A stretch of 64,000 nucleotides of DNA from positions 70,687 to 134,686 of the forward strand of contig JBPOHQ010000004.1 in NCBI GenBank assembly GCA_052035405.1, given 5' to 3'. This document shows positions 1,693-52,823 of the stretch, one piece after another. Numbering within the stretch: position 1 is the stretch's first letter; each line of letters starts with the position of its first letter. A program made the position numbers and the translations under genes. The notes below the pieces were generated by a model. The model was not told the DNA's origin. It made no database searches and was given only the letters and a program-made list of their open reading frames with translations. This DNA comes from Candidatus Nomurabacteria bacterium. GTDB taxonomy: Bacteria; Patescibacteriota; Minisyncoccia; Phycocordibacterales; UBA9973.

Positions 1693-1808
1693 AAAACAAA
1701 CCTTTGTACATGATACTGGTGGTCACACATAAAATTTTGCTAAATTTTTGTGCGACCCCGCCTCGGAACCGTCGTTCCTGCGGCTCTCACAAAGTACCCC
1801 GTACTTTG

Positions 1809-1880
1809 TGAGCGTGGATGGAATCGGACCATCGACCTCTGTCTTATCAGGACAGCGTTCTACCACTGAACTACACGCTC
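1809..1880 (-). tRNA. tRNA-Ile (anticodon GAU)
   Basis: Reverse complement GAGCGTG-TA-GTTCAGTGGTAGAAC-G-CTGTC-CTGATAA-GACAG-AGGTC-GATGG-TCCGATT-CCATC-CACGCTC-A folds as a canonical cloverleaf with a 7-bp acceptor stem; anticodon loop CTGATAA; no encoded CCA. Confidence 0.8.
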
Positions 1881-2514: not shown

Positions 2515-2889
2515 CTAAACAATCCTAAATCCTCCAGGATTGGAGCACGGAGATGCTGGCTCTATTAGTAGAGGTATTTGTTGTTTTTCTTGCTGTTGCT
2601 TTTCTTGCTGTTGTTTTTCTTGCTGTTGCTGTTGCTGTTCTTGTTCGAGTTGGCTTTGATCTTGGTTTTGGTTTTGGGCAACGACGAGCAATACTTCTTC
2701 TACTGGCATACAAATTAAATTTGAAAAATCAAAAAATACATGACCCACATTGGTCACGTTTATCTTTACCCGACTGTGTGTATCGGGAACAAAGGTATAC
2801 AGGCTTGTAAAACAAACCAACATAACTTTGTTTCCGAATCTCACTTGAACACAAACAAAACCAAAAAATTTTAAAGAACTAAACTGCAT
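2515..2889 (-). CDS. hypothetical protein with Gln/Glu-rich pentapeptide repeat (EKQQQ)x3; coding status uncertain
   Basis: ORF spans a 15-nt tandem DNA repeat; no recognisable domain. Confidence 0.25.
   Translation of the reverse strand: MQFSSLKFFGFVCVQVRFGNKVMLVCFTSLYTFVPDTHSRVKINVTNVGHVFFDFSNLICMPVEEVLLVVAQNQNQDQSQLEQEQQQQQQEKQQQEKQQQEKQQIPLLIEPASPCSNPGGFRIV
2570..2665. repeat. 15-nt tandem repeat (TTGCTGTTGCTTTTC-like, ~3 units plus degenerate copies; CAA/CAG-rich on the other strand)
   Basis: Direct reading: ttgctgttgcttttc ttgctgttgtttttc ttgctgttgctgttgctgttc. Confidence 0.7.
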
Positions 2890-16961: not shown

Positions 16962-17053
16962 GGTGAGCGTTCAGCAGATAGAACTAAACGATTCCTTACC
17001 CCACAAGGTCGGTTTGGTGGATTTTAGTAAAGTAAAACGACCCTTCTCGTGCG
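16962..17053 (+). ncRNA. element X copy 1: conserved ~91-nt structured intergenic element (unknown ncRNA family; strand uncertain)
   Basis: Shares a 5' block GGTGAGCGTTCAGCAGATAGAAC and a 3' block ACGACCCTTCTCGTGCG with copies at 39291 and 40373; internal hairpin CCTT-N8-AAGG covaries between copies. Confidence 0.55.
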
Positions 17054-17740
17054 TCAATTATCTAAATCAATCTTGTCTAGAGAAATTTGTTCTTTAAAAG
17101 TTTTTCCTGTTTCTTTTTCCGCAATGTATGCCATTAGTAGAAGTAAACCTGTGGTATATCCAAAAATTAAAGCGTATAGAGATTCATCCAGTTTCTGTTT
17201 AAGTCCTCCATCGTCATTATATACATTAGCTTCAACTCGATACTTCTTATCTTTCACATATATAAAAACATTTGCCGTCTTATGTACCGAAGAATCTCTT
17301 AAATTTCTTAGGTCAGAAAAAATTTTATTATCAAGATGTTTTCTAAATTTTTCTTCAATTTCTGGATATTCACCTGATTGAACCTTCTTAAGAAATTTAT
17401 TAAAACTTTTTTGCTGGACACCATATTGATCTTTGAGAAAAATGAGTAGGTAGTCATAAATAGATCTTGCTAGAGTTAAATAGCTTTCAAATAACCCTGC
17501 CAATATCTCATGGTTTACATCATGTTTCGCATCATTTATTTCTTTTTCACCAGCTTTGTATAAAATGTCCCCAATTATTCCAGTCCTAAAAAGACGAAAA
17601 AAGATTTGTGATGAAATTTGACCTTTCTTTTTATGGAGTACATTTTTAACAAAATAATTCTGAGATAATGCATGAAAAGCATATGAGGATGGTTTATCAA
17701 AACTAAATTTAAAATATTTATTTGTAAGCTCTAATGACAT
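17054..17740 (-). CDS. hypothetical protein
   Basis: 228 aa, no recognised motif; bracketed by element X copy 1 and tRNA-Glu. Confidence 0.5.
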   Translation of the reverse strand: MSLELTNKYFKFSFDKPSSYAFHALSQNYFVKNVLHKKKGQISSQIFFRLFRTGIIGDILYKAGEKEINDAKHDVNHEILAGLFESYLTLARSIYDYLLIFLKDQYGVQQKSFNKFLKKVQSGEYPEIEEKFRKHLDNKIFSDLRNLRDSSVHKTANVFIYVKDKKYRVEANVYNDDGGLKQKLDESLYALIFGYTTGLLLLMAYIAEKETGKTFKEQISLDKIDLDN

Positions 17741-17785
17741 ATACCAATATCATATACAGCACCTTCTCGTGCGCGCTGTTGACGG

Positions 17786-17857
17786 TGACCTCACGGAGAA
17801 TCGAACTCCGATTAGCGGATTGAGAACCCGCTGTCCTAACCGTTAGACGATGAGGCC
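17786..17857 (-). tRNA. tRNA-Glu (anticodon CUC)
   Basis: Reverse complement GGCCTCA-TC-GTCTAACGGTTAGGAC-A-GCGGG-TTCTCAA-TCCGC-TAAT-CGGAG-TTCGATT-CTCCG-TGAGGTC-A(CC) folds as a cloverleaf. Confidence 0.75.
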
Positions 17858-39191: not shown

Positions 39192-39234
39192 AAGTTAAAT
39201 ATACTATTAGTGTTAGTTTATTGCTAGTGACATT

Positions 39235-39293
39235 CTTCACAAAAACGCAAAAGACTGGAGCAGTCCAGTCTTTTCTTTATAAGCGTTTTTATG
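39235..39293. terminator. ~58-nt nested-palindrome terminator module, copy A (AAAAACGC-AAAAGACTGGAGCAGTCCAGTCTTTT-CTTTATAA-GCGTTTTT)
   Basis: Near-identical (one extra A) to 42478-42540; inner 10-bp stem followed by T-run, outer 8-bp inverted repeat. Confidence 0.65.
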
Positions 39294-39381
39294 AGCGTTC
39301 AGCAGATAGAACCAAACAATTCGTTACCCTGTAAGGCTATTTTAGCTAGTTTTAGATAATTTTATCGACCCTTCTCGAGCG
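39291..39381 (+). ncRNA. element X copy 2
   Basis: TGAGCGTTCAGCAGATAGAAC...TTACCCTGTAAGG...CGACCCTTCTCGAGCG; same spacing as copies 1 and 3. Confidence 0.55.
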
Positions 39382-39409
39382 ATTGTTAAAAATACTAAAT
39401 TTCTGATGA

Positions 39410-40303
39410 CTATGTTTTGATAATTGTACCAATAAATGAACTTTCTGTATCGAATGATTTGTGAGTATATTGAGCGAGTTCAGACTCAAGTGATTCCTTG
39501 GTGTATCGTAATGACTGAAACACAATCAATTTGTCACCCGACGTAATACCAATGCTTTCTAGTGCTGAATTGGTATTAATCACTAAACATGACACTCGAA
39601 ATCCGTCGTCTGCAATTCTTGGTGAGATATCAGTGAATGGATCAAGTCCGATAAGTCGAACCTTGTCATCTACTAGTCGAACAGCATCTTCTTGATAAAC
39701 TTTTTGCAATTCAACCATATCTACACGATCACGCATCTGCGCATTTATAAACACAAAACCGTTTGTTCCCACAATGTCAGTAAGAAGCTTTAATATTTCT
39801 TGTGGTGCGTAATTTGAAAACGTAAGACCAAGAGAAACAAACCGAGGAACTGTGGATTCTCCAAGAACCTCAGGTAATTCTTCAAATGAGGCTTTCACTT
39901 TTCGTACAGGAATCCCTTGTGGTGTTGCGTGTGAATCTGCCATTTCAAGAAAGTGATCACTGATATCTACAGGAACATATATAAAAGATTTACCTTGTTT
40001 TTTAAGTTCATCAAACAGGAACTGCTCCTTGTGTTCTGTGCCTGGACCAAGATCAATGTATTCAAAATTATTTGGGAGTATATCTGCAATATTTTTTGCA
40101 ATTAGTTGTAGATATTCATGTTCTGGTTTTGTGACTAGTTTGAAATACGAAGTATCTTCTTCTTGTAACTGTTCGTAAACTGCATCGCCCGAACCAATGT
40201 AAATAAGAAGGGAATCCGAAAAATCCCAAATCCCATTATCTAGTTTCTTGAGAGATTTGAAGGCTCGATCCTTAAACCATTCTTGGTTGTATTTTCCATC
40301 CAT
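39410..40303 (-). CDS. SAM-dependent methyltransferase of the EgtD / Methyltransf_33 (histidine N-alpha-methyltransferase-like) family
   Basis: Collinear with EgtD: YIDLGPGTEHK (cf. ELGSGTSEK), YVPVDIS, SLGLTFSNY (cf. FLGSTIGNL); 297 aa. Confidence 0.55.
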   Translation of the reverse strand: MDGKYNQEWFKDRAFKSLKKLDNGIWDFSDSLLIYIGSGDAVYEQLQEEDTSYFKLVTKPEHEYLQLIAKNIADILPNNFEYIDLGPGTEHKEQFLFDELKKQGKSFIYVPVDISDHFLEMADSHATPQGIPVRKVKASFEELPEVLGESTVPRFVSLGLTFSNYAPQEILKLLTDIVGTNGFVFINAQMRDRVDMVELQKVYQEDAVRLVDDKVRLIGLDPFTDISPRIADDGFRVSCLVINTNSALESIGITSGDKLIVFQSLRYTKESLESELAQYTHKSFDTESSFIGTIIKT

Positions 40304-40316
40304 GTCTCAATTGTAT

Positions 40317-40347
40317 CACAAAAACAGCTCCCTTCGGAGCTGTTTTT
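40317..40347. terminator. rho-independent terminator (AAAAACAGCTCC-cttc-GGAGCTGTTTTT)
   Basis: Perfect 11-bp stem with flanking A/T runs between element X copy 3 and the methyltransferase start. Confidence 0.65.
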
Positions 40348-40372
40348 GTATGCTTCTCGTGCTAGCCCGAAA

Positions 40373-40463
40373 TGGTGAGCGTTCAGCAGATAGAACCTTT
40401 TGATTCATTGCCCAGTAAGGTCATTTACTACTTTTCATGATATCAGAACGACCCTTATTGTGC
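40373..40463 (+). ncRNA. element X copy 3
   Basis: GGTGAGCGTTCAGCAGATAGAAC...CATTGCCCAGTAAGG...ACGACCCTTATTGTGCG; preceded by an extra CTTCTCGTGC motif at 40351. Confidence 0.55.
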
Positions 40464-40478
40464 GACCTAGTAAAAAAG

Positions 40479-41516
40479 CTACGAAATTTCTTTTGCATGC
40501 TTCAGATATTCTAGGAAGGCAATCTTCATCTCCTTATTACTACCACTCTTGTTTATATCCGAACGGCTTCCTGACATAATTGTATTCACATCAGGCAGGT
40601 TCCAGGCTGTCTGGTCACTCAATATCCACCTATCATGGGTATCTCTAATAAGAGTGCTGTCGATTTTGAGCCATTCTAAACTAATACCCTTACTAGATAG
40701 CTCTTTTTTTAGATCCCGGTACTCCTTCAAGACCTTTGGAGTTATATGAACATCAAGCCCTAAGGAAAGAATTTTAATATCTTTGATTTTATTCGCATCA
40801 GCAGTCTCCCATATGTATTCAAGGCCAGCAGAAGTGAAATGCTTATCGAGCCAATAGATATTACCTTTACAGCCTGACAATACCCGTTTAAGCCACATCT
40901 TATTTCCATACGGACGTGTTGGATCAATAAATATACTTGATGGTATCTCCGTTTCTTCTGCTGTCTGATTGAAGAGAACTTGAATTGTCTTGAATTTCTT
41001 TGAATATGTAATCAAGCCGACCGAGTTCATCATCAACAGAAGATTTGTAAGAGGACTCTCATCCATATAACACCAGAAACCCCTACTCTTCAAAATCGAC
41101 AAGGCGTTCTCTTTTTTTGGATTTTTTACTCCGTAAAGCAACTGAAGTATTGCTTCACATGGAGGAAATTGGAGTAACCCTTTCTTGAGTGCTTCGTTAG
41201 CCCTATCTACCTCAGAACGAATATACCTACCGTGATAATAAGAAGTTCCAAGTTCAGTAAGACTGTCTGAGGTAATCTCCATAAATCCTAGTGACCTTAG
41301 AAAATCAATGTCATCGTTGGATCCATCGGAATCTTCATCTTCAGCAATCGCCTTCAATATTTTTTCGTAAGAACTCCAAGTTCTCTGAGGAAGAAGATGC
41401 TCTTCGTTGTTATTCTCCTGTAGATTCTGTGTCTCCATTTTCATTTGAACCATTGGTTTTAGAGTACTTGTCACTGAACCCCGTAACGGAAGAAATAAGT
41501 GCCTTGTAGTCATCAA
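40479..41516 (-). CDS. hypothetical protein (unknown family), gene A of an overlapping pair
   Basis: 345 aa, no recognisable catalytic signature; annotated start overlaps upstream gene by 107 nt (a later Met would cut this to ~29 nt). Confidence 0.5.
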   Translation of the reverse strand: MMTTRHLFLPLRGSVTSTLKPMVQMKMETQNLQENNNEEHLLPQRTWSSYEKILKAIAEDEDSDGSNDDIDFLRSLGFMEITSDSLTELGTSYYHGRYIRSEVDRANEALKKGLLQFPPCEAILQLLYGVKNPKKENALSILKSRGFWCYMDESPLTNLLLMMNSVGLITYSKKFKTIQVLFNQTAEETEIPSSIFIDPTRPYGNKMWLKRVLSGCKGNIYWLDKHFTSAGLEYIWETADANKIKDIKILSLGLDVHITPKVLKEYRDLKKELSSKGISLEWLKIDSTLIRDTHDRWILSDQTAWNLPDVNTIMSGSRSDINKSGSNKEMKIAFLEYLKHAKEIS

Positions 41517-42141
41517 GAAGACCTATATTCGTAAGAATATCTTTTGGAAGAATCAAACTGATACCACTTTTCCCAAATGGGATTACGGTGTGTTCTGAGT
41601 CTGTCGCAATAGTAGTTTTAGAACCTGGTCTGGTAATCTGCGCTTTTGCAACTGGCTTTCTTGTGGGTGTATTTGATGGAATTCTTGGAGTCTTTATCTG
41701 AGCGGAAACCTCTCGAAGACCTGCTTGTTCACAAAGATACACAAATGCTGGTACGGCACCCGTAGCAACTCGTGAACTTATCTTGTATACATGCATGAAA
41801 TCGTTATGCAGTTCATCCTTGCCCATGGTACATGCCTCAGGAACAACTTTGAGGAGGGCCTCATATGAGGTTTTTACCATCTCAACAAGTGCCTGTGCTT
41901 TTGCATCACCCTTATATCCCATTTTTGCCATCAAGGATGTACTATTGGAGTCGGCATCTATCAATCCAAGGAATCTCAAGGAGGCAACAGCCAAATTTGC
42001 ATCACTGCTGGAGAATGAGTGGGTAAGGAAATAATCAGGATTCAATGATGTCATACTTCTTGCACTTATCAGAGAAAGTACTTTCTCGAGTCTAGTAGCA
42101 CTCAAATACGCTGGTGACAATGGTCTTTTTTCTTCAGTCAT
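41410..42141 (-). CDS. hypothetical protein (unknown family), gene B of an overlapping pair
   Basis: 243 aa; structured N-terminal ~150 aa, Pro/Thr/Lys-rich linker, C-terminal ~60 aa; no known motif. Confidence 0.5.
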   Translation of the reverse strand: MTEEKRPLSPAYLSATRLEKVLSLISARSMTSLNPDYFLTHSFSSSDANLAVASLRFLGLIDADSNSTSLMAKMGYKGDAKAQALVEMVKTSYEALLKVVPEACTMGKDELHNDFMHVYKISSRVATGAVPAFVYLCEQAGLREVSAQIKTPRIPSNTPTRKPVAKAQITRPGSKTTIATDSEHTVIPFGKSGISLILPKDILTNIGLLDDYKALISSVTGFSDKYSKTNGSNENGDTESTGE

Positions 42142-42477
42142 AGTTTTATGTGAATTAATTTATAATGATATTATAAATCTATCATACCCATACAACTAAA
42201 TCAAGTTTTTATTAAAATAATAAAAGCCTTGTAGATAAGCATTTTTAGTGAGAAAATTTTTTATAATATAAAATTATCACTCAGTCAATATATAAATAAT
42301 GTCCATTAAACTCTAAATCCCATCTACTTGAAGCGTGTACTCAAATTAATTATAATATCCATTTTATTTAAACACTCGTGCGAGCTGTTGATGGTGAGCC
42401 ACAATAATTTGTTCGCCGTCGCTCACAAATTTTCCAGCCCCGGACTCAGCTGTTTTTCTTACTAGAAAAACATGCTT

Positions 42478-42540
42478 CCGTCTTCACAAAAACGCAAAAA
42501 GACTGGAGCAGTCCAGTCTTTTCTTTATAAGCGTTTTTGT
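42478..42540. terminator. ~58-nt nested-palindrome terminator module, copy B, abutting the tRNA-Glu(UUC) 3' end
   Basis: CGTCTTCACAAAAACGCAAAAAGACTGGAGCAGTCCAGTCTTTTCTTTATAAGCGTTTTTGTG; see copy A. Confidence 0.65.
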
Positions 42541-42611
42541 GACCCTACAGAGAATCGAACTCTGATTACCGCCTTGAAAAGGCGATGTCCTAACCGTTAG
42601 ACGATAGGGCC
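42540..42611 (-). tRNA. tRNA-Glu (anticodon UUC)
   Basis: Reverse complement GGCCCTA-TC-GTCTAACGGTTAGGAC-A-TCGCC-TTTTCAA-GGCGG-TAAT-CAGAG-TTCGATT-CTCTG-TAGGGTC-A; near-paralog of the Glu-CUC gene at 17786. Confidence 0.75.
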
Positions 42612-42758
42612 ATATGGGACATAATATAATATTTATGTTCTAATTGCAAAGGGTTTGATCTACAATATAACATTTTAACGTTTGCCTTTATATAAATAAA
42701 AAAGTAGGATACAAAAGAACAAAACCGAGCCTAGCGGTAAAACTAAGCATGATACAGT

Positions 42759-52403: not shown

Positions 52404-52475
52404 GCCCTCATAGTTCAATGGATAGAACAGTTCCGTCCTAAGGAATAGATCCCCGTTCGATTCGGAGTGAGGGCA
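52404..52475 (+). tRNA. tRNA-Arg (anticodon CCU)
   Basis: GCCCTCA-TA-GTTCAATGGATAGAAC-A-GTTCC-GTCCTAA-GGAAT-AGAT-CCCCG-TTCGATT-CGGAG-TGAGGGC-A; one mismatch in T-stem. Confidence 0.65.
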
Positions 52476-52519
52476 CAATATAAAAAATCTTCCAAAAAGG
52501 AAGATTTTTTATATTGTGC
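52473..52519. terminator. long perfect palindrome/terminator (GCACAATATAAAAAATCTTCC-aaaaa-GGAAGATTTTTTATATTGTGC) overlapping the tRNA-Arg 3' end
   Basis: 21-bp perfect stem read directly. Confidence 0.7.
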
Positions 52520-52532
52520 TTTATAGCTTTAA

Positions 52533-52769
52533 TTATTTAATTCCGAGGAGTTCAACTATCTTTGGTTTGTTAAAACCTACAACGACATTATTACCTATGA
52601 CTATTACAGGTACGCCCATTTGACCACTCTTTTCAATCATTTCCTTTCTTTTATCTGTATCTACACCAACATTAAAGTCAGTAAAAGCTACGTTGTTTTC
52701 TGTAAAAAAGTCTTTTGCCATATGACAGAAGTGACATGATTCAGTTGAATATATAGTTACATTTTCCAT
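52533..52769 (-). CDS. glutaredoxin-family small redoxin (NrdH/YruB-like)
   Basis: 78 aa; CHFC active site near the N-terminus, GVPVIVIG motif. Confidence 0.75.
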   Translation of the reverse strand: MENVTIYSTESCHFCHMAKDFFTENNVAFTDFNVGVDTDKRKEMIEKSGQMGVPVIVIGNNVVVGFNKPKIVELLGIK

Positions 52770-52823
52770 AAATTTTTTATTATTATCTTCTAATTACTTT
52801 AATTATATCACACCCGTCAACCT

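What the first reader, a model, noticed from the sequence alone, without database searches (positions are those of the whole stretch)
17763..17790. Conserved CTCGTGCG-N9-GGTGA motif abutting the 3' ends of both tRNA-Glu genes and of element X
The block CTTCTCGTGCGCGCTGTTGAC-GGTGACC lies directly against the tRNA-Glu(CUC) 3' end. A near-identical block (CACTCGTGCGAGCTGTTGAT-GGTGAGCC, 42374-42400) lies ~140 nt from tRNA-Glu(UUC), and CTTCTCGTGC recurs at both ends of element X copy 3 (40351 and a variant at 40451) and at the ends of copies 1 and 2. So the tRNA-Glu genes and element X share a downstream flank (minus-strand CGCACGAGAAGG). That suggests either a shared 3'-processing/termination signal, or that element X derives from tRNA-Glu-flanking sequence (an integration site or target-site duplication).
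Basis: seen in the sequence. Interest (0 to 1): 0.6.

Follow-up and report, generated by a model that had tools for sequence, protein, structure and literature searches.

The report
tRNA-Glu-anchored gene-cassette junction motif
The short motif is real and marks the edges of small swappable gene cassettes, many of them anti-phage genes, that pile up behind tRNA-Glu genes in Patescibacteria, at the same spot where serine-recombinase mobile elements insert.

Summary
All features lie on the minus strand. It follows tRNA-Glu(CUC), a tRNA-like end I call Y, and X copy 3. The same CACGAGAAGG also forms the 5' end of each of the three ~90-nt X copies.

It is not a generic intergenic element: CTCGTGCG occurs 3 times against 0.23 expected. 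It is conserved well beyond this genome. A scan with the invariant X 20-mer found 17 Patescibacteria loci. In 10 of 16 distinct loci a tRNA-Glu with TCAC-N12/13-CACGAGAAG lies 0.6-2.7 kb upstream, with 1-3 unrelated co-oriented genes in between (Shedu, OLD-like, Abi-like, HEPN and others).

X is not in Rfam, has no conserved fold and is not coding.

A large Patescibacteria family of large serine recombinases is integrated exactly at the tRNA-Glu 3' end. In three loci the same recombinase abuts the 3' end of X instead.

Best reading: motif and X are attachment or junction sequences of a tRNA-Glu-anchored cassette array. X imitates the tRNA-Glu 3' end, so the site is regenerated. No recombinase lies in this window. 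The crossover point and current mobility are inferred, not shown.

The parts
17784..17857 (-). tRNA-Glu(CUC); its 3' end ...GGTCACC is the left arm of the junction
   Evidence: ARAGORN; Rfam tRNA 58.2 bits
17762..17783 (-). Junction unit after tRNA-Glu(CUC): 10-nt spacer GTCAACAGCG (17783..17774) plus motif CGCACGAGAAGG (17773..17762)
17054..17740 (-). Cargo ORF, 228 aa, weak Cthe_2314-like HEPN match; homologues elsewhere are also followed by X-like or Y-like elements
16962..17053 (-). Element X copy 1: starts CGCACGAGAAGGGTCG directly after the HEPN stop codon and ends GTTCTATCTGCTGAACGCTCACC
   Evidence: 87.3 bits, E=1e-25
42539..42611 (-). tRNA-Glu(UUC); followed directly by a terminator, so it looks like an unoccupied site
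42482..42538 (-). T57 copy A: 57-nt terminator segment directly after TCAC of tRNA-Glu(UUC); identical to 39234-39290
   Evidence: (family D7)
42393..42481 (-). Y: structured piece ending GGCTCACC, a tRNA-like 3' end that serves as the left arm of the second array; its core hairpin is homologous to L107 4694-4745
   Evidence: (z=-3.4)
42373..42392 (-). Junction unit after Y: spacer ATCAACAGCT plus motif variant CGCACGAGTG
41410..42141 (-). Cargo ORF, 243 aa, DUF5343; matches the PADLOC candidate defence family PDC-M34A
40479..41516 (-). Cargo ORF, 345 aa, no family match; same cassette as the DUF5343 gene
40374..40465 (-). Element X copy 3, with 5' motif variant GCACAATAAGG at 40463..40453
   Evidence: 77.6 bits
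40352..40373 (-). Junction unit after X3: spacer ATTTCGGGCT plus AGCACGAGAAGC; this is the X-to-next-cassette junction, followed by a terminator at 40320-40347
39410..40303 (-). Cargo ORF, 297 aa, SAM-dependent methyltransferase (Methyltransf_33)
39292..39381 (-). Element X copy 2, the last unit of the array; 5' motif CGCTCGAGAAGG; ends GCTCAT and then T57
   Evidence: 78.8 bits
39234..39290 (-). T57 copy B: the same 57 nt that follow tRNA-Glu(UUC), here following X2
   Evidence: D7; identity run starts at the junction

Best explanation
The motif is one half of a conserved junction, TCAC(C)-N10-(G)CACGAGAAG(G). This junction marks the boundaries of short gene cassettes accumulated in tandem downstream of tRNA-Glu in Patescibacteria.

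On the tRNA strand, each unit reads as follows: [3' end of tRNA-Glu, or of a mimic, ending TCAC] - C-N10-GCACGAGAAG - 1 to 3 cargo genes - (G/T)CACGAGAAGGGTC...~55 nt...GTTCTATCTGCTGAACGCTCAC. The last stretch is X.

The last ~23 nt of X imitate the tRNA 3' half. Each inserted unit therefore ends with a new copy of the attachment arm, and a further unit or a recombinase-bearing element can be added behind it. This is tandem accretion.

I infer that the junctions are site-specific recombination sites. The most likely enzyme is the tRNA-Glu-specific large serine recombinase family found inserted at exactly this point in related genomes.

Shown: the architecture, its conservation, the variable cargo, and recombinase genes abutting tRNA-Glu and X at TCAC.

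Inferred: that the integrase-less cassettes themselves move by this recombinase, and where the strands cross (at TCAC or inside the decamer).
For: 1. Specificity and recurrence in the window.

2. Conservation across genomes. The X core 20-mer found 17 real loci in Saccharibacteria, Nomurabacteria and Parcubacteria MAGs. A same-strand tRNA-Glu lies upstream in 10 of 16 distinct loci. The spacing from TCAC to CACGAGAAG is fixed at 12-13 nt in most of the ~20 sites listed, after four kinds of left arm: tRNA-Glu, X, Y and the TGTCAC box.

3. Cargo between motif and X is unrelated from locus to locus, always co-oriented and tightly packed: Shedu, OLD-like AAA_15+TOPRIM, AAA_21, Abi_alpha, AbiGi-like, DUF6602, HEPN, DUF5343/PDC-M34A, methyltransferases, GNAT and ADH.

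4. HEPN homologues at 67-86% identity sit in four different genomic contexts, each with an X-like or Y-like element right after the stop codon.

5. X is not a structured RNA. It has no Rfam match, single-sequence folding gives z of about 0, and RNAalifold on 24 copies gives -3.3 kcal/mol with no covarying pair. It is not coding, because length differences between copies in the segment next to the core break any shared reading frame.

6. The recombinase link. A family of ~505-aa large serine recombinases has 1946 hits at E<=1e-20. Most of the top 120 have C-termini that are antisense read-through of a tRNA 3' half. For example, P0002 ends ...VVTLQRIEL*, which is exactly the antisense of the window's tRNA-Glu(UUC) 3' half. 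In L105 the gene overlaps tRNA-Glu by 29 nt. In L010, L092 and L110 the same gene abuts the 3' end of X instead, giving ...HL|VSVQQIE and ...KLVSV*.

7. X2 is followed by the identical 57 nt that follow tRNA-Glu(UUC), and the identity starts right at the TCA(C/T) junction. Of the 24 aligned X copies (A2), 15 end GCTCAC-A, usually followed by a terminator hairpin. Eight end GCTCAC-C, several of them running into N10 plus the motif or a degenerate copy of it; window X2 ends GCTCAT.

8. In L108 the left and right motif copies share the same variant (CCGAG), behind a tRNA-Gln.
Against: No recombinase homologue is present in the 64-kb window (tblastn), or within about 4 kb of X in most loci.

No empty site with tRNA-Glu directly joined to X was found, and no circular form. 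The metagenome scan for empty sites returned almost only chance hits.

Dyad symmetry around TCAC is weak, 35% against a 25% background. The best centre is the GCTAGC inside the spacer, at 39%.

Left and right decamers of one cassette are usually not identical, so the crossover point is ambiguous.

Recombinase-bearing elements such as L105 carry neither X nor the motif, and I could not find their other end by symmetry.

X is absent from the viral contig collection.

The motif lies in a transcribed tRNA trailer, so an additional RNA-level role cannot be excluded.
Confidence: 0.6

Rival explanations
1. X is a conserved small RNA, transcribed behind tRNA-Glu or as a 3'-UTR product of the cargo genes. 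The decamer would then be an RNA-level signal: a processing site that releases tRNA-Glu, the mRNA and X, or a binding site for a protein.
For: X and the motif always lie on the tRNA and cargo strand. Terminators follow the terminal X copies. The 3' 22 nt of X are extremely conserved across classes. In three loci a conserved box precedes X.
Against: There is no Rfam family and no conserved or covarying structure in 24 copies. Folding energy is no better than shuffled sequence. The interior is AT-rich and variable, and several copies occur per genome, always at cassette ends. This reading does not explain recombinase genes abutting X exactly as they abut tRNA-Glu, nor the T57 duplication.
Confidence: 0.15
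2. The conserved flanks (tRNA-Glu plus motif on one side, X on the other) act only as homology arms. Cassettes would be swapped by homologous recombination after natural transformation, with no dedicated recombinase.
For: There is no recombinase in the window or in most loci. The flanks are 75-95 nt of high identity across genomes. The exact 57-nt repeat flanking the second array would fit a single-crossover insertion.
Against: The arms are short and only 76-80% identical outside the 20-mer. This reading does not explain the fixed 12-13-nt spacing of TCAC and the decamer behind four different left arms. It also does not explain the repeat of the decamer on both sides of the cargo, or the precise recombinase junctions at X.
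Confidence: 0.15
3. The cassettes are inert debris. They would be decayed remnants of prophages or integrative elements that once inserted at tRNA-Glu, with motif and X as fossil att-site halves that have no present function.
For: Phage genes (terminase, ParB-methylase) and recombinases lie next to some arrays. Some motif copies are degenerate: L004 CGTAACAAG, L017, L015, and the L055 remnant.
Against: A 20-mer is invariant and the ~90-nt length is fixed across Saccharibacteria, Nomurabacteria and Parcubacteria. The tidy stop-codon-to-motif spacing and co-orientation of all cargo are not what random decay leaves.
Confidence: 0.1

Closest known systems
Tandem accretion of integrase-less cis-mobilizable elements (CIMEs) with integrative elements at the 3' end of a target gene (ICESt1/ICESt3 model; reviewed in PMC5704250)
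   Same: The units have no integrase but keep att-like ends. They sit in tandem at the 3' end of a conserved gene. An incoming recombinase-bearing element is inserted into the distal att-like site: L010, L092 and L110 have the recombinase directly behind X.
   Different: The units here are 0.7-3 kb with 1-3 genes and share one highly conserved ~90-nt terminal element across classes. They do not look like random deletion products of a larger element. The candidate enzyme is a serine rather than a tyrosine recombinase, and no conjugation genes are present.
Tycheposon-shaped tRNA-proximal genomic islands of Prochlorococcus (bioRxiv 10.1101/2020.12.28.424599)
   Same: The islands are anchored at specific tRNA genes. 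tRNA snippets mark earlier insertions, integrases are specific for one tRNA, cargo is variable, and tandem junctions occur.
   Different: Tycheposons carry their own integrase (mostly tyrosine type) and replication genes and are 10-20 kb. Here most units carry no mobility gene. The repeated end is a fixed 90-nt element only 14/23 identical to the tRNA 3' end, not a literal tRNA fragment.
Integron cassette arrays (IntI, attI, attC)
   Same: Arrays of short, co-oriented, mostly single-gene cassettes, each ending in a conserved ~60-140-nt element. The array lies behind one fixed site, and the cargo is enriched in defence genes.
   Different: There is no IntI tyrosine recombinase. X does not fold into an attC-like hairpin and lacks the RYYYAAC/GTTRRRY cores. 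The anchor is a tRNA gene, not attI.
Large serine recombinase attachment sites; SCC-type composite islands (Ccr recombinases at the 3' end of rlmH/orfX) - from my own knowledge, not checked in a paper here
   Same: Serine recombinases insert at the 3' end of a conserved gene. Composite arrays include units without their own recombinase, separated by repeated att-like sequences.
   Different: SCC units are much larger, and their repeats are copies of the target-gene end. A tRNA-Glu target and an X-like terminal element are not described for them.

Membership tests
Integron (attC cassette array) | IntI-type tyrosine recombinase next to the array | tested here: not met
   No such gene recurs near X. 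The only recurrent recombinases are serine recombinases.
Integron (attC cassette array) | Terminal element folds as an imperfect hairpin with RYYYAAC ... GTTRRRY cores | tested here: not met
   X folds no better than shuffled sequence. The consensus fold is -3.3 kcal/mol with 4 invariant pairs. The cores are absent from the alignment.
Integron (attC cassette array) | Array of short co-oriented cassettes behind one fixed site | tested here: met
   There are two cassettes in the window's second array and three in L014.
Large serine recombinase att sites | Large serine recombinase gene (Resolvase + Recombinase domains) adjacent to the site | tested here: inconclusive
   Met in L010, L092, L110 (abutting X), L105 (abutting tRNA-Glu) and L018 (two genes away). 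Not met in the window or in most loci.
Large serine recombinase att sites | 40-50-bp imperfect dyad around a central dinucleotide | tested here: inconclusive
   Palindromic matches around TCAC are 35% and around GCTAGC 39%, against 25 +/- 5% over all centres.
Large serine recombinase att sites | Recombination between attP and attB demonstrated, with an identical central dinucleotide | not testable with these tools
   This needs in-vitro or in-vivo assays, or read-level evidence of excised circles.
tRNA-anchored genomic island built by serial site-specific insertion | Located at the 3' end of a tRNA gene, which stays intact | tested here: met
   Both window tRNA-Glu genes are intact. The same holds in 10 other loci.
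tRNA-anchored genomic island built by serial site-specific insertion | Repeated att-like sequences delimit the units, and the distal repeat resembles the tRNA 3' end | tested here: met
   The decamer lies on both sides of the cargo. The X core matches the tRNA-Glu 3' 23 nt at 14/23 positions in fixed register (D7, 18). Functional equivalence is shown by the recombinase junctions.
tRNA-anchored genomic island built by serial site-specific insertion | Different cargo between the same flanks in different genomes | tested here: met
Known structured RNA family (Rfam) | Match to a curated covariance model | tested here: not met
   Only tRNAs reach the gathering score. Nothing relevant appears at E<=10 in 39200-42700.

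The most novel reading that the evidence does not exclude
Patescibacteria may possess an integron-like cassette platform run by a large serine recombinase instead of an integron integrase. The platform would be anchored at the 3' end of tRNA-Glu. The ~90-nt element X would play the attC role as double-stranded DNA, by imitating the tRNA-Glu 3' half and regenerating the attachment site after every insertion. In that way, bacteria with tiny genomes could stockpile and exchange single anti-phage genes.
Probability: 0.25. Interest if true: 0.8.

Novelty: new variant of a known kind. Interest (0 to 1): 0.6.

Why it matters
Patescibacteria have very small genomes and few recognised mobile elements, and how they acquire and exchange defence genes is poorly understood.

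A conserved, sequence-defined cassette site behind tRNA-Glu would be a simple marker for finding their variable gene pool, and new defence genes, in metagenomes. The signature is TCAC-N12-CACGAGAAGG plus the X 20-mer.

It would also point to a large, highly conserved family of tRNA-Glu-specific serine recombinases with a natural 40-50-bp target, which could be of practical interest as integration tools.

If the integrase-less units really move, this would be a recombinase-in-trans cassette system distinct from integrons.

Tried and rejected
Group II intron 5' end (GUGCG after a terminator): considered from the sequence and dropped. The motif reads on the other strand relative to the tRNA, X and cargo, and no intron domains or reverse transcriptase are present.

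Promoter or Shine-Dalgarno reading of the motif: dropped. No -35/-10 fit was found, and the motif lies 22 nt from the HEPN start codon.

Small protein encoded on the plus strand of X (MVSVQQIE...): rejected. Length differences between X copies in the segment next to the core shift any shared reading frame. The peptide is explained by recombinase read-through.

X as a tRNA-like fold: rejected. No T-arm or acceptor pairing can be drawn, ARAGORN does not call it, and there is no consensus fold.

Known RNA family: none found.

Metagenome scan for an empty site (TCACC-N9-12-CACGAGAAGGGTC): 80 hits, almost all chance matches in GC-rich coding DNA. Only L055 and L092 were relevant.

Viral contigs: the X 20-mer gave 0 hits and a looser pattern gave 1 chance hit.

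Strain variants of this genome, sought through exact flanking proteins: only fragments of the same assembly were returned.

Search for the far end (P arm) of the L105 recombinase element by dyad symmetry: nothing found.

Dyad-symmetry test of the junction: weak. I withdrew an earlier idea that the decamer is a clear inverted copy of the X core.

Similarity of the decamer to the recombinase-gene 3' end (TAGCACCAGA in L105): not conserved in L010, L110 or L092, so I treat it as unreliable.

Literature searches for a described tRNA-Glu cassette system in Patescibacteria found none.

Full report
**What is in the window**

All relevant features lie on the minus strand.

First array:
- tRNA-Glu(CUC), 17857..17784, ends ...GGTCACC.
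- It is followed by GTCAACAGCG and CGCACGAGAAGG (17783..17762).
- A 228-aa ORF follows at 17740..17054, with a weak HEPN match.
- Directly after its stop codon comes CGCACGAGAAGG again (17053..17042).
- That decamer is the first part of element X copy 1, which ends GTTCTATCTGCTGAACGCTCACC at 16962.

Second array:
- tRNA-Glu(UUC), 42611..42539, has a promoter-like site upstream and a terminator directly downstream.
- A structured ~90-nt piece follows, which I call Y, ending GGCTCACC (42400..42393).
- Next come ATCAACAGCT and CGCACGAGTG, then a DUF5343 gene and a 345-aa gene.
- X copy 3 follows, at 40465..40374.
- Next come ATTTCGGGCT and AGCACGAGAAGC, a terminator, and a methyltransferase gene.
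- X copy 2 follows, at 39381..39292.
- The array ends with a 57-nt terminator segment identical to the one behind tRNA-Glu(UUC).

This is the 3' end of a tRNA or tRNA-like piece, a spacer, and a decamer. The same decamer is also the 5' end of every X.

**Is it more than chance, and is it generic?**

- CTCGTGCG occurs 3 times against 0.23 expected.
- The 23-nt pattern occurs twice against 0.00 expected.
- The 12-mer with up to 2 mismatches occurs 7 times against 1.33 expected, and five of those are in the contexts above.
- A sequence model of X finds exactly three copies in the window, at E of 1e-22 to 1e-25.
- The other four tRNA genes of the window lack the motif.

**Other genomes**

A scan of one genome per species with the invariant X 20-mer gave 18 loci. 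Seventeen are real. All but one come from MAGs labelled Saccharibacteria, Nomurabacteria, Parcubacteria, Patescibacteria or simply 'bacterium'. The exception, L013, sits in a Dysgonamonadaceae-labelled bin and is a near-duplicate of Saccharibacteria locus L016. L011 is a chance hit.

In 10 of the 16 distinct loci a same-strand tRNA-Glu lies 0.6-2.7 kb upstream of X. Nine of these ten tRNA-Glu genes are followed at once by TCAC, 12-13 nt and CACGAGAAG (degenerate in L004). In the tenth, L007, a Y-like copy of the tRNA 3' end carries the junction.

The same spacing is kept after four kinds of left arm: tRNA-Glu, X, Y-like pieces and a TGTCAC box.

X has this consensus: (G/T)CACGAGAAGGGTC, about 30 AT-rich variable nt, CCTT-N3-GGGYAA-N-GAA, 7-9 nt, then GTTCTATCTGCTGAACGCTCAC.

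**Cargo**

Between the junction and X lie 1-3 genes. They are always co-oriented, and the stop codon lies 0-15 nt from the decamer.

The genes differ from locus to locus, and many are of anti-phage type:
- Shedu SduA
- OLD-like AAA_15+TOPRIM
- AAA_21
- Abi_alpha
- AbiGi-like
- DUF6602
- HEPN
- DUF5343 (PADLOC candidate PDC-M34A)
- methyltransferases, a GNAT and an alcohol dehydrogenase

. In the window itself only the DUF5343 protein matches a defence-family model, and the HEPN match is below Pfam's cut-off.

Homologues of the window's HEPN gene (67-86% identity) occur in four unrelated neighbourhoods. Each has an X-like or Y-like element right after the stop codon. This argues that gene plus terminal element travel together.

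**What X is not**

- It is not an Rfam family.
- It does not fold better than shuffled sequence on either strand.
- It has no consensus structure or covariation in 24 copies.
- It is not a tRNA by ARAGORN.
- It is not coding, because length differences between copies in the segment next to the core break any shared reading frame.

Conserved blocks separated by variable AT-rich DNA of fixed length look like a protein-bound DNA site.

**The recombinase link**

In L010 a 546-aa large serine recombinase ORF runs antisense straight through X (...KSHL|VSVQQIE...). In L092 and L110 a homologue ends inside the 3' end of X. In L018 a second serine recombinase family lies two genes from an array.

The L010-type protein belongs to a very large, well conserved Patescibacteria family: 1946 hits at E<=1e-20, with the top 120 at 56-75% identity and about 505 aa.

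Most of the top 120 end, right after a conserved ...KSxLV, in peptides that are antisense translations of a tRNA 3' half. P0002 ends VTLQRIEL*. That is exactly the antisense of the window's tRNA-Glu(UUC) sequence GTGACCCTACAGAGAATCGAACTCTGA. In L105 the gene overlaps tRNA-Glu(UUC) by 29 nt.

These elements therefore sit precisely at TCAC| of tRNA-Glu. In three independent loci X takes the place of the tRNA. The X core matches the tRNA-Glu 3' 23 nt at 14/23 positions in the same register.

Relatives of the second recombinase family lie in viral contigs 1.7-2 kb from tRNA-Ser and tRNA-Gln genes at the contig ends.

**Where do strands cross?**

Two observations point to TCAC|:
- The 57 nt behind X2 are identical to those behind tRNA-Glu(UUC), starting at the junction.
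- Of the 24 aligned X copies (A2), 15 end GCTCAC-A, usually followed by a terminator hairpin. Eight end GCTCAC-C, and several of these run into N10 plus the decamer or a degenerate copy of it. Window X2 ends GCTCAT.

On that reading the four junction types correspond to standard att sites:
- tRNA|N10-decamer is attL-like.
- X|N10-decamer is a rejoined element junction.
- X|terminator is attR-like.
- tRNA-Glu(UUC)|terminator is an empty site.

Other observations point to the decamer itself:
- It flanks the cargo on both sides.
- Units exist with cargo and without it (L009, L015, L018, L092).
- Three elements carry GTTCTATC followed by a decamer-like 9-mer in place of TGCTGAACG (L014, L015, L109).
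- In L108 the left and right copies share the same variant, CCGAG.

I could not decide between these two. A two-level system is possible.

A direct test of dyad symmetry was weak: 35-39% against 25% background.

**What is missing**

- There is no recombinase in the window.
- I found no empty tRNA-Glu-X site and no circle.
- X is absent from viral contigs.
- No strain variants of this genome were available.

The cassettes may be mobilised in trans, carried along with a neighbouring recombinase element, exchanged by homologous recombination through their conserved flanks, or be fossils.

**Comparison with known systems**

The logic is that of tRNA-anchored islands built by serial site-specific insertion. 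It also matches integrase-less cis-mobilizable units accreted with an incoming element (PMC5704250), and the tRNA-specific islands shaped by tycheposons (10.1101/2020.12.28.424599).

It resembles an integron in having short co-oriented cassettes that each end in a conserved element. It fails the defining integron tests, however: there is no IntI and no attC hairpin or cores.

Four literature searches found no description of this tRNA-Glu/X system in Patescibacteria.

**Verdict**

I rate it a new variant of a known kind. Confidence is 0.6 that these are recombination or attachment junctions of a cassette array, and interest is 0.6.

Noticed in passing
window 42393-42481 (minus); L107 4694-4745; also L002 ~420-485, L007 ~1700-1920, L015 ~2140-2270: Y is a second conserved terminal element. 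It is a hairpin with a conserved loop (GAGCRACGGCGA or GCGAAGCGA) and a stem that covaries between the window and L107 (TTTGT/ACAAA against TTTTT/AAAAA). It begins GAG..GGG(G)TCG like X and ends (G)TCAC(C). It folds far better than shuffled sequence (z=-3.4 and -4.1) and is not in Rfam.
   Followed up: partly
window 39234-39290 and 42482-42538: An exact 57-nt duplication of a terminator segment, once after tRNA-Glu(UUC) and once after X2. It brackets the whole second array.
   Followed up: yes
window ~52722-52770 (minus); L009, L010, L015, L018, L055, L092: A conserved box, TGTAAC-N19-TGTCACTT(T/C)TGTCA(C/T). In the window and in L055 it directly precedes a gene starting MAKDFF. In L009, L015 and L018 it directly precedes X. 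In L010 and L018 it lies next to a phage ParB-methylase gene. It could be a promoter/operator or an element end.
   Followed up: partly
P0001-P0120; L105 10001-11561; L110 2734-4324: A very large Patescibacteria family of ~505-aa large serine recombinases whose annotated C-termini are antisense read-through of the tRNA they are integrated next to, mostly tRNA-Glu. The true stop codon, and so the protein's end, depends on the insertion site.
   Followed up: partly
L108 1253-1373 and 3057-3128: A variant of the junction follows a tRNA-Gln: 13 nt, then ACCGAGTAGGGTCGAAAGTCAC. The matching variant GACCGAGACGGGTTG starts the X-like element after aroB-HEPN. The system may therefore not be limited to tRNA-Glu.
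   Followed up: no
L014:46-140, L015:2018-2112, L109 3901-3990: X variants in which the core 9-mer TGCTGAACG is replaced by a copy of the decamer (ACGAGAAGG, ACGAGAACG or CCGAGGGAG). In L109 the cargo starts right after it.
   Followed up: partly
window 1808-1880, 42539-42611, 52404-52476 and their 3' flanks: tRNA-Ile, tRNA-Glu(UUC) and tRNA-Arg have no encoded CCA, while Val and Phe do. For Ile and Glu(UUC) the terminator hairpin starts inside the last four bases of the tRNA (TCAC...GTGA).
   Followed up: no
L092 8479-10844: A CBASS-like pair (oligonucleotide cyclase plus 2TM effector) and a LexA-like repressor lie just upstream of the TGTCAC box, the cassette and X in that locus.
   Followed up: no
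window 2569-2650: A 15-nt tandem repeat (TTTTTCTTGCTGTTG-like, 4-5 copies) reported by the repeat finder. It is probably a coding repeat.
   Followed up: no
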